From NCBI RefSeq assembly GCF_024298765.1, contig NZ_CP101210.1: a stretch of DNA of 64,000 nt; one strand, 5' to 3'. Source of the DNA: Escherichia coli (GTDB taxonomy: Bacteria > Pseudomonadota > Gammaproteobacteria > Enterobacterales > Enterobacteriaceae). The position numbers and the translations under genes are program-made. The notes under the pieces were generated by a model that had not been told where the DNA came from, searched no databases, and saw only the letters and a program-made list of their open reading frames with translations. Numbering within the stretch: the first letter of the stretch is position 1; each line of letters starts with the position of its first letter. This document shows, piece after piece, positions 59,995 through 64,000 of the stretch.

Positions 59995-60035
59995 TTGCCG
60001 GATAATATAAAAAGTTATCCGGCAAATTATTTTTT
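59995..60035. terminator. bidirectional terminator between yggM and TRAP dctM
   Basis: Stem TTGCCGGATAA/TTATCCGGCAA, loop TATAAAAAG, flanking T-run. Confidence 0.55.
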
Positions 60036-61335
60036 ACATTAGCCCTAGTAGCTGTGGAATGAACAAGGATATTTGCGGGATGTAAGTGATCATCATCAAC
60101 GCGATTAACAATGCGGCATAAAATGGCAGCAATGGTTTGATCAAATGTTGAATCTTCACACCTGAAATAGAACAACCAACAAATAGCGCACTACCCACCG
60201 GCGGTGTTAACAGCCCAATACAAAGGTTAGCCACCATCATAATACCGAAATGTACCGGATCCATTCCCAGCTCTTGTGCAATCGGCAAGAAGATTGGTGT
60301 GAAGATTAGTACAGCCGGTGTCATGTCCATAAAGATGCCGACAATTAATAAGACGATATTAATCAGCAGCAATATGATCAGTGGGTTATCAGAAATCCCC
60401 ATCAATGCGTCGCTGATCATATAAGGAATATCAGCATTGGTCATTGCCCAGGACATGCCCACGGAAAAACCGATCAACAGTAATACAATCGAAGTGGTAA
60501 CAACCGATTCCAGAATCAGTTTGGGTAAATCGCGCCATTTTACTTCCCGGTAAATCAGCACCGAGAGAATAAATGTGTAGACAACGGCAATTGCTGACGC
60601 TTCAGTTGCGGTAAAAATGCCGCCCAGAATGCCGCCCATTACAATGAACACCAGAAGCAAACTTGGTAAGGCATCCAGAAAAGCTTTACATGCCTGAGCA
60701 AAGGTTGCTCTTTCTGAAAGTGGGTAGCCACGGCGTTTAGCAATAATGCCGCAGACTATCATTACCGCGAGACCCATTAAGATCCCTGGCAAATATCCCG
60801 CCATAAATAACGATGCTACAGAAACGCCGCCAGCTGTCAGGGAAAACACAATTAACACGTTTGAGGGCGGTATCAGTAATCCAGTAATACAAGATGAGAC
60901 GTTTACAGCGGTAGAAAATGCCGGATCATAACCTTCTTTGGTCTGAATGGGATTCAGTGTGCCACCAACGGCAGCAGCTGCCGCAACGGCTGAACCAGAA
61001 ATGGAACCAAACATCATATTCGCCAGGACGTTCACATGACCAAGCGAACCAGGAACGCGGCCAACCATTACCTGGGCGAGGTTAATCAAACGTATCGCAA
61101 TACCGCCGCTGTTCATCAGTGTTCCGGCAAAGATGAAAAAGGGGATTGCCAACAGGGCAAAGTTATCCAGTCCATTAGCCAATCGTTGCGAAACAGTGAT
61201 TGCCGCGATATCCCAGGGAAACATCAACAGCATTGAAGCTACAGTCGCAATAGCGATTGAGAACGAAATGGGCACACCAATAAAGACCAGCACAAAAAAA
61301 CAGTCAAACAGTGTAATCGCGATATAACTATCCAT
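60034..61335 (-). CDS. TRAP transporter large permease (DctM family)
   Basis: 433-aa polytopic ORF; start overlaps DctQ stop. Confidence 0.8.
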   Translation of the reverse strand: MDSYIAITLFDCFFVLVFIGVPISFSIAIATVASMLLMFPWDIAAITVSQRLANGLDNFALLAIPFFIFAGTLMNSGGIAIRLINLAQVMVGRVPGSLGHVNVLANMMFGSISGSAVAAAAAVGGTLNPIQTKEGYDPAFSTAVNVSSCITGLLIPPSNVLIVFSLTAGGVSVASLFMAGYLPGILMGLAVMIVCGIIAKRRGYPLSERATFAQACKAFLDALPSLLLVFIVMGGILGGIFTATEASAIAVVYTFILSVLIYREVKWRDLPKLILESVVTTSIVLLLIGFSVGMSWAMTNADIPYMISDALMGISDNPLIILLLINIVLLIVGIFMDMTPAVLIFTPIFLPIAQELGMDPVHFGIMMVANLCIGLLTPPVGSALFVGCSISGVKIQHLIKPLLPFYAALLIALMMITYIPQISLFIPQLLGLM

Positions 61336-61847
61336 TAACTGGCCTCCTGCGCAGGTTGTTTCAGTTGTTGAATGCTTTGATTAATAAAACACAAGGCATA
61401 AAACATCATCACCACTCCACTTAATGGCAGAATGATATATACGTATCCCATCGGTATTTGCATTGCGGCAGATACCTGTGATGTTGCCAGTGTTTTATCA
61501 ATTAATTTCAGGCCACCAGTCACAATGACCGAACCGGCAAAACCTAAAATAAGAACGTTAATGACTATACTAAGAAGTAATTGCTTGCGCTTATTCAGGG
61601 CGAGAGCAAATAAATCGATAGAGAGATGTCTCTGCGCGCCGACGGTATATGCAGCACCTAATAATCCTACCCAGATCATCAAAAAGCGTGCCAGCTCATC
61701 GGTTAATGTACTTGGCTGGTTAAGTACGTAGCGGCTAAATACTTGCCAGACTACGCATACAACCAGAGCAAGCATTACGGCGACAGAAAACGCGGCAATG
61801 ACGCGGTCTACCGCAAGTTTCAGGCGGTTAAATATCATTGTAAGCAT
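61335..61847 (-). CDS. TRAP transporter small permease (DctQ family)
   Basis: 170-aa 4-TM ORF between DctP and DctM. Confidence 0.75.
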   Translation of the reverse strand: MLTMIFNRLKLAVDRVIAAFSVAVMLALVVCVVWQVFSRYVLNQPSTLTDELARFLMIWVGLLGAAYTVGAQRHLSIDLFALALNKRKQLLLSIVINVLILGFAGSVIVTGGLKLIDKTLATSQVSAAMQIPMGYVYIILPLSGVVMMFYALCFINQSIQQLKQPAQEAS

Positions 61848-61882
61848 CCTGGAAAATCAGGGCCAGAGACTGGCCCGAAATA

Positions 61883-62869
61883 TTATTGAGCAGCGTTGTC
61901 GAATTTCTCTAACAAAGCAGCTTGTTTTGGATCTTTTTTGAAGTCGTCAAACAGAGGTTGAACTGCGGCACGGAATGGGGCTTTATCAACCTTAACGATT
62001 TCACCACCCATAGCTTTCGCCTGAGCACGTGTGTCAGCGTCAATTTTTTCCCACAATTTTTGTTGATAAGCTTCGGATTTCTTCGCCGCTGTTTCGAGGA
62101 TTTGTTGCTGTTCTGGGGTTAATTTATTCCATGTTTTGGTGGAGATAACCAAAAAGTCAGGAATTGAGGCATGTTCATCTTCAGAAAAGACTTTGGCAAT
62201 TTCGATATGTCGAGTCTGCACCCAGGAAGGCACGTTATTTTCTGCGCCATCTACTACACCTTGTTGCATCGCAGTATAAACTTCGCCAAATGAAATTGGA
62301 GTGGGTGAGCCACCCATCAGTTCAATCATTTTGATGGTGGTCGGGCTTGGCTGAACACGAATTTTCAGCCCTTTAAGATCTTCTGGCTTAGTAATCGGTT
62401 TTTTCGCATAGAAACTGCGAGTACCCGCTACATAAGCTGATAAAGCAAAAAAGCCTTTATCTTTTGTTGAATCCATAATTTCTTTACCAACTTCACCAAA
62501 AACCACTTTGTTGAAGTGCGCCTGATCTTTAAATAAGAACGGCAAATTATAGATAGCATAAATATTATCAAAAGACTCCAGATCACTGGCGGAACCTTTG
62601 GTCATATCCAGTGCACCATTTTGCAACAACTCCATAGTTTCTCGCGCATTACCCATCTGGCTGCTGGGGTAAATACGGATCACCATATTACCTTTTGACA
62701 GCTGTTTTACTTCTTTCGCCAGCTCTTCAAAACTCTGATGTACAACATGACTTCTTTCCAGGTTGTGTGCTAACTTTAACGTCACTTTTTCTGCGGCGTT
62801 TACGCCAGTGCTAACCAGAGCCAGCAAGGATGCGCAGACTAATGAGCGGGTAAATGACCTCATTTTCAT
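61883..62869 (-). CDS. TRAP transporter substrate-binding protein (DctP family)
   Basis: 328 aa with signal peptide MKMRSFTRSLVCASLLALVSTGVNA. Confidence 0.8.
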   Translation of the reverse strand: MKMRSFTRSLVCASLLALVSTGVNAAEKVTLKLAHNLERSHVVHQSFEELAKEVKQLSKGNMVIRIYPSSQMGNARETMELLQNGALDMTKGSASDLESFDNIYAIYNLPFLFKDQAHFNKVVFGEVGKEIMDSTKDKGFFALSAYVAGTRSFYAKKPITKPEDLKGLKIRVQPSPTTIKMIELMGGSPTPISFGEVYTAMQQGVVDGAENNVPSWVQTRHIEIAKVFSEDEHASIPDFLVISTKTWNKLTPEQQQILETAAKKSEAYQQKLWEKIDADTRAQAKAMGGEIVKVDKAPFRAAVQPLFDDFKKDPKQAALLEKFDNAAQ

Positions 62870-63136
62870 AAAAAAACTCCCTGTTGAAGAATGGAAATTG
62901 GTTGATATCTAATTGTGCTTATCAGTGCTTTGTGCGACAAATTGGTTAACCTGTCTGACAACTTGTCTATGTTTATCACAACTTGAAATAAAGTCAGAAA
63001 TTAAATATTAATTTTGTGCGCCAGGTTGTACATGTTTATAATCAATAAATGATGAGTAAATATTCACTAAATATATATAATAAATATCGTCGATATTTAT
63101 TCTGTAAGAAATATATTTTTGCCGAAGTTAATTAAC

Positions 63137-63150
63137 GGGGGGGGGGGGGG
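63137..63150. repeat. homopolymeric G14 tract (C14 on the TRAP/hemW coding strand)
   Basis: Read directly: ...ttaacGGGGGGGGGGGGGGtaaaag...; between hemW stop and AT-rich region upstream of dctP. Confidence 0.9.
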
Positions 63151-63189
63151 TAAAAGAAGTGATTAATGCGCCCGCAGGCGCATTAATGA

Positions 63190-64000
63190 TTACTCAGCGA
63201 GGAATAATTCAAGAAGTGAGTTTAAGAATAATTTACCATGCTCGGTTATCTGCCAGTAATCCGCACATTCTGTGAGATAACCCTGAGCGATGGCCTCGTC
63301 TAACTGAGAGCGAATAACTTCTTCAGAAAGGCCAGTATACTGGCTAAACTCCACGCGCGGCGCGGCCTCCAGCAGACGGAAGCGATTCATAAAGAACTCA
63401 AACGGCTTATCTGCGGCTTCGACATCACGCTGGCTTTCCAGATACCTTCCTTGCATAAAACCACGCGGATGACGCGTTTTGGTGGTACGCAGAATGCGCC
63501 CATCCGGGAAGGTCACTTTGCCGTGCGCGCCGCAGCCAATACCGATGTAGTCGCCAAATCGCCAGTAGTTGAGATTGTGCTGGCACTGATAACCTGGTTT
63601 GGCGTAAGCGGATGTTTCATACTGCTGATAGCCCGCTGCGGTTAATAACTGATGCCCCTGTTCGAAAATATCCCACAGCGCGTCATCGTCCGGCAGTACA
63701 GGAGGGCGCGAGCCAAACAGCGTATTAGGTTCGATGGTCAGTTGATACCAGGAAAGATGCGGCGGATTCAGTTCAATGGCCTGGCGCAGATCGCCAAGCG
63801 CCTCTTCCAGTGATTGATCCGGTAGCCCATGCATCAAATCGAGGTTAAAGCTACGTAACCCTAAACCGCTCGCCAGATTTGCCGCTCGTTTCGCTTCTTG
63901 CGGGCCATGAATGCGCCCAAGTCGTTTCAGCTTTTCTTCGCTAAAACTCTGCACGCCAATGGAGATGCGGTTCACACCAGCACGCTGATAATCAACAAAG
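63190..64000 (-). CDS. hemW: heme chaperone HemW (radical SAM family), 3' portion; N-terminus beyond window end
   Basis: C-terminal 261 aa of ORF running off the window; matches YggW/HemW. Confidence 0.8.
   Translation of the reverse strand, partial: FVDYQRAGVNRISIGVQSFSEEKLKRLGRIHGPQEAKRAANLASGLGLRSFNLDLMHGLPDQSLEEALGDLRQAIELNPPHLSWYQLTIEPNTLFGSRPPVLPDDDALWDIFEQGHQLLTAAGYQQYETSAYAKPGYQCQHNLNYWRFGDYIGIGCGAHGKVTFPDGRILRTTKTRHPRGFMQGRYLESQRDVEAADKPFEFFMNRFRLLEAAPRVEFSQYTGLSEEVIRSQLDEAIAQGYLTECADYWQITEHGKLFLNSLLELFLAE

What the first reader, a model, noticed from the sequence alone, without database searches (positions are those of the whole stretch)
63137..63150. 14-nt homopolymeric G tract in the TRAP-operon promoter region, downstream of the hemW terminator
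Long poly-G/C runs are rare in E. coli and prone to slipped-strand mispairing. The tract sits ~270 bp upstream of dctP, just after a palindromic hairpin (63163-63186), and could vary in length and modulate TRAP expression. It could also be an assembly or sequencing artefact.
Basis: seen in the sequence. Interest (0 to 1): 0.45.

Follow-up and report, generated by a model that had tools for sequence, protein, structure and literature searches.

The report
Length-variable poly-G tract after hemW terminator
The 14-G run is real and is an unusually unstable single-letter repeat that differs in length (about 4 to 14) between otherwise near-identical E. coli strains. It lies in a non-conserved spacer just past the hemW terminator, so it looks like a neutral mutational hotspot rather than a switch for the neighbouring TRAP transporter genes.

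Summary
G14 lies at 63137-63150 and is the only homopolymer longer than 8 nt in the window. On the coding (-) strand it reads C14. It starts 11 nt after the hemW terminator hairpin and lies 268 nt upstream of the dctP-like ATG.

About 1,475 of 5,426 complete E. coli genomes carry this hemW-TRAP junction, and the tract is length-polymorphic among them. Direct reads give 4-14 G, some tracts are interrupted (G7AG6, G5AG7), and one divergent allele has only G3. Lengths 9, 10, 11, 12, 13 and 14 all occur on one 4-kb haplotype that differs by at most one SNP. Lineages with G6 or G8 look stable. This is what replication slippage predicts.

The hemW-TRAP arrangement is shared with Citrobacter, Kluyvera and Klebsiella, and none of them has the tract. 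A sister Escherichia has TCCCCCGC at the site, a likely proto-repeat. Every conserved regulatory motif lies on the dctP side of the tract, so tract length cannot change any spacing between motifs.

Verdict: this is a genuine hypermutable mononucleotide repeat specific to Escherichia and most likely neutral. It is not an assembly artefact, although the exact count of 14 cannot be verified without reads. A role as a promoter rheostat is not supported, but it is not excluded.

The parts
63137..63150 (.). Homopolymer: G14 on the + strand, C14 on the strand that encodes hemW and the TRAP genes. Hypervariable in length among E. coli genomes.
   Evidence: presence and rarity. (direct reads of 3/4-14 G in other genomes). 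(span differences within one haplotype).
63162..63187 (-). hemW intrinsic terminator hairpin (11-bp stem, 4-nt loop). The core GCGCCTGCGGGCGC is shared with Citrobacter.
   Evidence: terminator scan; centroid -17.2 kcal/mol, z -4.5; same hairpin core after hemW in Citrobacter sp. On2M and C. braakii.
63151..63161 (-). Imperfect U-tract of the terminator (CACTTCTTTTA on the - strand). The C tract begins directly after it. In haplotype 2 the final TTA is missing, so the C run abuts CACTTCTT.
   Evidence: haplotype comparison.
63190..64000 (-). 3' part of hemW (runs off the window end). Its last ~180 nt are 72-90% identical to the hemW of genomes that lack the TRAP operon.
   Evidence: ORF; RefSeq annotation of the orthologous locus; sliding identity.
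62870..63136 (-). AT-rich hemW-dctP spacer (GC 21-35%) that holds all motifs conserved across genera: TCG around 63124-63126, GCGCACAAAA 63012-63021, TGTGA 62976-62980, palindrome TGTCAGACA 62952-62960, TTGTCGCACA 62931-62940, AGATATCAACCA 62899-62910, GGAG ribosome-binding site 62877-62880. All lie on the dctP side of the tract.
   Evidence: MAFFT alignment of 22 other species plus the window; composition; sequence.
60034..62869 (-). Three-gene TRAP transporter operon: DctP-family binding protein 61883-62869, small permease 61335-61847, large permease 60034-61335.
   Evidence: ORFs; TIGR00787 dctP 286 bits, TIGR00786 dctM 472 bits, both above cut-off; RefSeq annotation.

Best explanation
The tract is a genuine, Escherichia-specific mononucleotide microsatellite that changes length by replication slippage. 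It lies in the functionally unconstrained few bases between the hemW intrinsic terminator and the regulatory region of the TRAP operon. It probably arose when point changes fused a short proto-repeat (TCCCCCGC, 8 nt, as in a sister Escherichia lineage) into an uninterrupted run of about 8. Beyond roughly 9 units it became unstable and now drifts between about 9 and 14, while shorter alleles (6, 8) stay fixed within their lineages and some alleles have been interrupted by an A. Its length has no demonstrated effect, and probably little or none, on TRAP or hemW expression.

Shown: presence, position, polymorphism, lineage restriction, and location outside the conserved motifs.

Inferred: slippage as the mechanism, the birth scenario, and neutrality.
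For: (1) The tract is real and non-random.

(2) It is present at the same site in about 1,475 of 5,426 complete E. coli genomes and in 24 metagenome contigs.

(3) Direct reads with identical flanks give the following. Haplotype 1 (AAC-Gn-TAAAAGAAG): n = 6, 6, 6, 7, 7, 8, 9, 9, 10, 11, 12, 13, plus the window at 14. Haplotype 2 (AAC-Gn-AAGAAG): n = 4, 10, 10, 11, 12, 12, 13, 13, 14, plus interrupted G7AG6 and G5AG7.

(4) Variation occurs without other divergence. Over window 60001-64000, L001 (n=13) differs only at the tract. L094 (n=12) and L095 (n=9) differ by one SNP plus the tract. The 60 best 4-kb matches (all >=99.8% identical) have spans implying n=13 (1 genome), 12 (1), 11 (25), 10 (28) and 9 (5).

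(5) Instability depends on length. In the systematic 60-row sample, 14 rows fit G8 and 14 fit G6, with uniform spans. Metagenome contigs are mostly G6 (16 of 24, one with an extra A). This fits the exponential dependence of indel rate on run length reported for E. coli (PMC8510543).

(6) Calls are reproducible. Strain E166 assembled twice, AHB4 deposited twice, and the clonal pairs GPEC1165/1185, 1209/1210 and 1352/1356 each give the same span.

(7) There is no functional constraint at the site. The hemW-TRAP synteny is conserved in Citrobacter, Kluyvera, Klebsiella, Pseudocitrobacter and Phytobacter, none of them has the tract, and the tract column is a gap in all of them. A divergent E. coli allele has GGGCATTTA instead (L017). 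Escherichia sp. MOD1-EC7003 has TCCCCCGC.

(8) All conserved motifs lie on the dctP side of the tract, so its length changes no spacing between motifs or between a motif and the promoter.

(9) Interruptions at different positions are the usual decay path of a neutral microsatellite.
Against: Expression was not measured, so neutrality is an inference from missing conservation and wide length tolerance. Some of the length spread among public assemblies could come from homopolymer miscalls by long-read or Illumina platforms; I could not stratify by platform or inspect reads. The tract directly abuts the terminator U-tract, so it forms the downstream duplex that RNA polymerase holds at the release point, and this could influence hemW termination. 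The TCG motif only ~10 nt from the tract is conserved across genera and has no known function. The persistence of runs of 10 or more in many lineages of a mismatch-repair-proficient species is unusual and could reflect selection.
Confidence: 0.72

Rival explanations
1. Contingency or rheostat element. Tract length tunes or switches TRAP operon transcription. This could work by altering read-through from hemW (a G:C-rich downstream duplex weakening a terminator with an imperfect U-tract), or by changing local DNA structure at the edge of an AT-rich region likely bound by H-NS.
For: The tract is hypermutable. It lies in the only intergenic spacer upstream of the TRAP operon, on the same strand as hemW and dctP. 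It starts 11 nt after the terminator stem, about where the downstream duplex sits at RNA release. In haplotype 2 the C run replaces the last three positions of the U-tract. No good sigma-70 promoter is predicted on the - strand, which leaves room for read-through or activator-dependent expression.
Against: The tract lies distal to all motifs conserved across genera, so it cannot change their spacing or helical phasing. It is absent from every other genus with the same operon and from a divergent E. coli allele. Lengths from 3-4 to 14 coexist in strains that all keep intact, nearly identical TRAP proteins. Any effect through the downstream duplex should saturate once the first ~6-8 bp are G:C, and that holds for nearly all alleles. 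It is a lone tract; neither the 64-kb window nor the 12-kb locus L001 contains another, unlike genomes that rely on repeat-based switching.
Confidence: 0.17
2. Sequencing or assembly artefact. The run, or its length of 14, is a miscall such as a homopolymer error or a two-colour poly-G artefact.
For: No haplotype-1 genome among the rows listed from the collection has 14; the closest has 13. Long homopolymers are error-prone on several platforms (general knowledge). The window's own reads are not available.
Against: The tract occurs at the same site with the same flanks in about 1,475 complete genomes from many laboratories and years, and in 24 metagenome contigs. Replicate assemblies and clonal pairs give identical spans. 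Haplotype 2 reaches 14 independently (L008). The G6 and G8 lineages are uniform, which argues against rampant miscalling. So only a 1-2 nt uncertainty in this window's count is plausible (my estimate, perhaps 25%), not an artefactual tract.
Confidence: 0.03
3. Nucleic-acid structural or loading element. The G strand forms a G-quadruplex (with the C strand as an i-motif), or the C14 RNA in read-through transcripts acts as a Rho loading patch that backs up the hemW terminator.
For: Rho prefers C-rich, G-poor, unstructured RNA (general knowledge), and the C tract stays unpaired in the predicted fold. Fourteen G could form a two-tetrad quadruplex, which needs at least 11 G.
Against: A canonical three-tetrad quadruplex needs four G3 runs, at least 15 nt if built from a single run, and most alleles are far shorter. 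Rho loading sites span tens of nucleotides, and here only 4-14 C are followed by AT-rich sequence. There is no conservation outside E. coli and no Rfam match.
Confidence: 0.04

Closest known systems
Polymorphic mononucleotide simple-sequence repeats in non-coding E. coli DNA (surveyed by Gur-Arie et al. 2000 and used for typing by Diamant et al. 2004; cited from memory, not retrieved here)
   Same: A single-base run in an intergenic spacer. Its length differs between strains through slippage, has no demonstrated phenotype, and mutability rises with run length (PMC8510543).
   Different: At 14 units, with a 4-14 range, it is far longer and more variable than anything else in this 64-kb window and, by my recollection, than typical E. 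coli runs. It is G/C rather than the commoner A/T. It sits in an accessory locus present in only about 27% of genomes.
Promoter-located homopolymer contingency loci: Bordetella pertussis fim poly-C, Neisseria meningitidis porA poly-G and opc poly-C, Helicobacter pylori sabA poly-T (from memory)
   Same: A long G/C homopolymer upstream of a gene for an envelope or uptake function. It is hypermutable, and lengths of ~10-15 are typical of those systems.
   Different: In those systems the tract lies between the -35 and -10 elements, or between an activator site and the core promoter, so its length sets spacing. Here the tract is distal to every conserved motif and adjacent to the upstream gene's terminator. 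The host is mismatch-repair proficient and has no other such tract nearby. No length-dependent expression is known.
Sequence context downstream of intrinsic terminators (terminator-distal effects on efficiency; Telesnitsky and Chamberlin 1989, Reynolds and Chamberlin 1992; from memory)
   Same: The tract starts immediately after the U-tract of the hemW terminator, where downstream duplex stability can modulate release.
   Different: Such context effects come from the first few base pairs, not from a variable-length repeat. Nothing here shows that termination efficiency differs between alleles.

Membership tests
Hypermutable mononucleotide microsatellite (neutral simple-sequence repeat) | Uninterrupted single-base run well above chance length | tested here: met
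   G14. G10 is expected 0.09 times per window in shuffles, and no other run exceeds 8 nt.
Hypermutable mononucleotide microsatellite (neutral simple-sequence repeat) | Length polymorphism between close relatives with identical flanks, in single-unit steps | tested here: met
   n = 9, 10, 11, 12, 13 and 14 on a 4-kb haplotype with at most 1 SNP. The range is 4-14 across E. coli.
Hypermutable mononucleotide microsatellite (neutral simple-sequence repeat) | Instability grows with run length; short alleles are stable | tested here: met
   The G6 and G8 classes have uniform spans (14 rows each of a systematic 60-row sample), and G6 dominates the metagenome contigs. Alleles of 9 or more vary within a haplotype. 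This fits PMC8510543.
Hypermutable mononucleotide microsatellite (neutral simple-sequence repeat) | No sequence or length constraint at the site (neutrality) | tested here: inconclusive
   The tract is absent in other genera and in one E. coli allele, interruptions occur, and it lies outside the conserved motifs. These are consistent with neutrality, but expression was not measured.
Repeat-based phase-variation or contingency locus (promoter type) | Repeat lies within the core promoter spacer, or between an activator site and the core promoter, so that length changes spacing | tested here: not met
   All motifs conserved across genera are on the dctP side. The tract borders the hemW terminator. 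No - strand sigma-70-like site overlaps it. The true transcription start is unknown.
Repeat-based phase-variation or contingency locus (promoter type) | High-frequency, reversible length change within a clonal population | not testable with these tools
   Only consensus assemblies are available. Differences between genomes imply high mutability, but no reads or colony series were available.
Repeat-based phase-variation or contingency locus (promoter type) | Expression of the downstream gene depends on repeat number | not testable with these tools
   No expression data were found. The literature search for hemW + TRAP transporter + E. coli returned 0 papers.
Intrinsic (Rho-independent) terminator of hemW | G+C-rich hairpin followed by a U-rich tail directly after the stop codon | tested here: met
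   11-bp stem, -17.2 kcal/mol, z -4.5, tail CACUUCUUUU. The hairpin core is conserved in Citrobacter. The C tract is downstream context, not part of the hairpin or U-tract.
Canonical intramolecular G-quadruplex | Four runs of at least 3 G separated by loops (at least 15 nt if built from a single run) | tested here: not met
   The maximum observed is 14 G, and most alleles have 6-13. Only a weak two-tetrad form is possible.
Known structured RNA family | Match to an Rfam covariance model | tested here: not met
   Across 62600-63500 on both strands the only hit is a spurious lncRNA match at 18 bits against a gathering score of 55.

The most novel reading that the evidence does not exclude
The tract is a true repeat-based contingency element in E. 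coli, a species thought to rely on invertible elements and Dam methylation rather than repeats for phase variation. Under this reading, long alleles weaken or bypass the hemW terminator, or alter nucleoid-protein occupancy at the AT-rich spacer, so that subpopulations differ heritably but reversibly in expression of an accessory TRAP nutrient transporter.
Probability: 0.08. Interest if true: 0.6.

Novelty: new member of a known kind. Interest (0 to 1): 0.27.

Why it matters
E. coli is mismatch-repair proficient, and long G/C runs are scarce in it: this 64-kb window holds no other run above 8 nt. A 4-14 unit tract present in about a quarter of strains is therefore an unusually clear natural example of microsatellite birth, length-dependent instability and interruption in this species.

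It has three practical uses. It is a very fast-evolving marker for discriminating near-identical isolates, for example the poultry-associated lineage carrying this haplotype. It is a known trouble spot for homopolymer calling in assemblies. It is also a built-in reporter of slippage or mismatch-repair status.

It matters less for TRAP biology, because the evidence places it outside the conserved regulatory architecture of the operon.

Tried and rejected
(1) Artefact hypothesis for the tract itself. Rejected because the tract recurs in about 1,475 genomes and 24 metagenome contigs, and replicate assemblies agree.

(2) Tract within a sigma-70 promoter. The consensus scan found no - strand promoter in 62700-63400. 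It found one weak + strand match (63090-63117, 9 of 12), fewer than the 1.8 matches the shuffles give by chance, so I do not treat it as evidence.

(3) Structured RNA or riboswitch in the spacer. No credible Rfam match.

(4) Pairing of the C tract with another segment of the hemW 3' RNA. The fold leaves it single-stranded and is unchanged without it.

(5) Tract as an island-insertion scar. Rejected because hemW-TRAP synteny is ancestral across Enterobacteriaceae. The presence/absence breakpoint lies inside the 3' end of hemW, not at the tract. Genomes of the K-12 type have REP-like palindromes there instead.

(6) Literature. No paper combines hemW, TRAP transporter and E. coli. Searches on E. 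coli mononucleotide repeats and on poly-G phase variation returned nothing about this locus.

(7) A full length distribution over all 1,475 genomes was not obtained. The tools list at most 60 rows per search, so I used one systematic 60-row sample, the 60 best rows, and 24 direct reads.

Full report
**1. The observation**

Window 63137-63150 is 14 consecutive G, flanked by C and T. It is the only homopolymer above 8 nt in the 64-kb window. The next longest G runs are 7 nt, and no C run reaches 7. A G10 word is expected 0.09 times per window in dinucleotide-preserving shuffles.

All flanking genes are on the - strand:
- hemW ends at 63190 (stop included).
- A DctP-family gene starts at 62869.
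- Small and large TRAP permease genes follow it.

Read in the direction of transcription, the order is as follows:
- hemW stop;
- hairpin;
- CACTTCTTTTA;
- C14;
- 267 nt of AT-rich spacer (GC 21-35%);
- dctP ATG.

The hairpin plus tail scores as an intrinsic terminator. It folds at -17.2 kcal/mol, z = -4.5, with the C tract left unpaired.

**2. The tract is real and varies in length between strains**

The hemW-TRAP junction is present in about 1,475 of 5,426 complete E. coli genomes. I fetched 24 of these loci and read the tract directly.

| Allele type | Flanks | Tract lengths read |
|---|---|---|
| Haplotype 1 | AAC-Gn-TAAAAGAAG | 6, 6, 6, 7, 7, 8, 9, 9, 10, 11, 12, 13 (window: 14) |
| Haplotype 2 | AAC-Gn-AAGAAG, with a G-to-A change in the hairpin that keeps pairing as G-U | 4, 10, 10, 11, 12, 12, 13, 13, 14 |
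| Haplotype 2, interrupted | as haplotype 2 | G7AG6, G5AG7 |
| Divergent allele (85.6% identical, L017) | GGGCATTTATAAAAGA | G3 only |

Twenty-four metagenome contigs retrieved with a flank pattern give the following:
- G6: 16 contigs, one with an extra A.
- G7: 4 contigs, one with an extra A.
- G9: 1 contig.
- Haplotype 2: G10, G13 and an interrupted G8AG6.

**3. Variation without other divergence**

Using window 60001-64000 as query, the 60 best genomes are all at least 99.8% identical. Their match spans differ by 1-5 nt, implying n=13 (1 genome), 12 (1), 11 (25), 10 (28) and 9 (5). I verified five of these classes by sequence:
- L001, n=13: no other difference from the window.
- L094, n=12, and L095, n=9: one shared SNP at 61304 plus the tract.
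- L002, n=11, and L003, n=10.

So six lengths sit on one 4-kb haplotype carrying at most one substitution.

Short alleles behave differently. In a systematic 60-row sample of all carriers, the classes that correspond to G8 (14 rows) and G6 (14 rows) are uniform in span (exemplars verified). Stability at 6-8 and instability from about 9 upward is what slippage predicts. In E. coli, indel rates rise exponentially with homopolymer length (PMC8510543).

Three EHEC-type genomes that share the same HemW and DctP protein accessions have 12, 11 and 10 G (L012-L014).

**4. Not an artefact**

The same tract recurs at the same site in assemblies from many laboratories and years, and in metagenome assemblies. 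Independent assemblies of strain E166, two records of isolate AHB4, and three clonal GPEC pairs give identical spans.

What cannot be verified is the exact count of 14 in this window. It is the longest haplotype-1 value seen; the nearest relative has 13. Haplotype 2 reaches 14 independently (L008).

**5. Where the tract sits relative to function**

A protein-guided scan of one genome per species found the same dctP (81-94% amino-acid identity) in several genera. hemW lies directly upstream of it in Citrobacter, Kluyvera, Klebsiella, Pseudocitrobacter, Phytobacter and others. The arrangement is therefore ancestral. E. coli genomes of the K-12 type have lost the operon and carry REP-like palindromes between yggM and hemW instead.

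An alignment of the hemW-dctP spacer from 22 of these species with the window shows these conserved blocks:
- TCG at about 63124-63126.
- GCGCACAAAA at 63012-63021.
- TGTGA at 62976-62980.
- The palindrome TGTCnGACA at 62952-62960.
- ATGTCATACA (E. coli: TTGTCGCACA) at 62931-62940.
- AGATATnnACCA at 62899-62910.
- The ribosome-binding site.

Every one of these lies on the dctP side of the tract. The tract column is a gap in all non-Escherichia sequences. Each genus has its own hemW terminator hairpin at that position, and Citrobacter shares the GCGCCTGCGGGCGC core.

Changing the tract length therefore alters only the distance between the hemW terminator and the first conserved motif. It cannot alter any spacing inside the regulatory region. 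No sigma-70-like site on the - strand overlaps the tract, and no Rfam family matches.

**6. Origin**

Escherichia sp. MOD1-EC7003 has CTTTTA-TCCCCCGC-GTTAATT where E. coli haplotype 1 has CTTTTA-Cn-GTTAATT. Two substitutions would turn this 8-nt segment into C8, which is also one of the two common stable lengths. I infer a proto-repeat that became an uninterrupted run, then expanded or contracted, then acquired interruptions. This sequence of events is an inference, not a demonstration.

**7. Mechanism and rivals**

Best-supported reading (confidence about 0.72): a neutral or nearly neutral hypermutable mononucleotide repeat in an unconstrained spacer.

Main rival (about 0.17): a regulatory effect.
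- The most plausible route is the terminator. The tract forms the downstream duplex at the RNA release point of a terminator with an imperfect U-tract. In haplotype 2 it replaces the last three U-tract positions.
- This could change read-through into the TRAP region.
- Such an effect should saturate after the first 6-8 G:C pairs, so it would distinguish haplotypes more than tract lengths.

Structural roles (quadruplex, Rho loading) lack support:
- The run is too short for a canonical quadruplex.
- Most alleles are much shorter than 14.
- Nothing is conserved at the site outside E. coli.

**8. Comparison with known systems**

The tract behaves like the polymorphic mononucleotide repeats already described in E. 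coli non-coding DNA, and I file it there as an unusually long and variable member.

It resembles promoter homopolymer switches such as Bordetella fim, Neisseria porA/opc and Helicobacter sabA in composition and length. It fails their defining positional criterion, which I tested. The two functional criteria, reversible switching within a clone and length-dependent expression, could not be tested here.

**9. Verdict**

The artefact explanation is rejected for the tract as such. The promoter-modulation idea is not supported.

Novelty: new member of a known kind. Interest is modest (0.27). It is a clean natural example of microsatellite dynamics in E. coli and a useful typing or assembly-quality marker, with a small residual chance (about 0.08) of being a real contingency element.

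Noticed in passing
window 60034-63190; loci L019, L020: The three-gene TRAP operon between yggM and hemW is a presence/absence polymorphism, present in about 27% of complete E. coli genomes. Genomes of the K-12 and B2 types have REP-like palindromes (GCCGGATGCGGCG...) in its place. Because hemW-TRAP synteny is shared with Citrobacter, Kluyvera and Klebsiella, absence is the derived state.
   Followed up: partly
window 63190-63370: The last ~180 nt of hemW are only 72-90% identical between TRAP-positive and TRAP-negative alleles, against 93-100% for most of the rest of the gene (one 60-nt bin at 63670-63729 is 88%). The breakpoint of the polymorphism therefore lies inside the hemW 3' end, and the two allele classes look old.
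   Followed up: partly
window 62899-63021 (- strand); loci L047-L082: The dctP upstream region carries motifs conserved across genera that look like operator sites: GCGCACAAAA, TGTGA, the palindrome TGTCnGACA, ATGTCATACAG and AGATATnnACCA. No regulator gene is adjacent in E. coli. The Escherichia version has diverged at the candidate -10 (GGATAATATG in other genera, GGTTAACCAATTTG here).
   Followed up: partly
window 63122-63126 and the orthologous positions in L048-L050: Directly after the tract, E. coli keeps TTCGG. In Citrobacter the equivalent is an inverted repeat (for example GTACTCGG-AAAAA-CCGAGTAC). In Kluyvera and Klebsiella there are repeated TTCCGAA units. E. coli appears to have lost the second half. 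Function unknown.
   Followed up: no
L018 (NZ_CP166722.1, strain CEA106S): An IS1A copy abuts the end of hemW. The TRAP operon and the 3' part of yggM are deleted, and hemW is annotated 24 nt longer because its stop codon was displaced.
   Followed up: no
L091, L093, L026, L041, L044: Interrupted or modified tracts occur: G7AG6, G5AG7 and G8AG6 in haplotype 2, and G6-A-TAA and G7-A-TAA in haplotype 1. The sub-runs on both sides of the A differ in length between genomes.
   Followed up: partly
L045, L046, L086: Metagenome-assembled genomes labelled Collinsella sp., Bacillota bacterium and Alicyclobacillaceae bacterium contain contigs encoding a DctP 99-100% identical to the E. coli protein. In L045 the contig also carries hemW and a C8 tract. 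This is most likely binning contamination by E. coli.
   Followed up: no
window 63090-63117 (+ strand): A weak sigma-70-like match (TCGATA-16-TATATT, 9 of 12) points towards the G tract and antisense to hemW. The shuffles give 1.8 such matches by chance in this AT-rich stretch, so it is probably meaningless.
   Followed up: no
(E. coli genome search summaries): One of the ~1,490 matching places lies on a record classed as a plasmid, and a few genomes have two places. I did not inspect them; they may be misassemblies or duplications.
   Followed up: no
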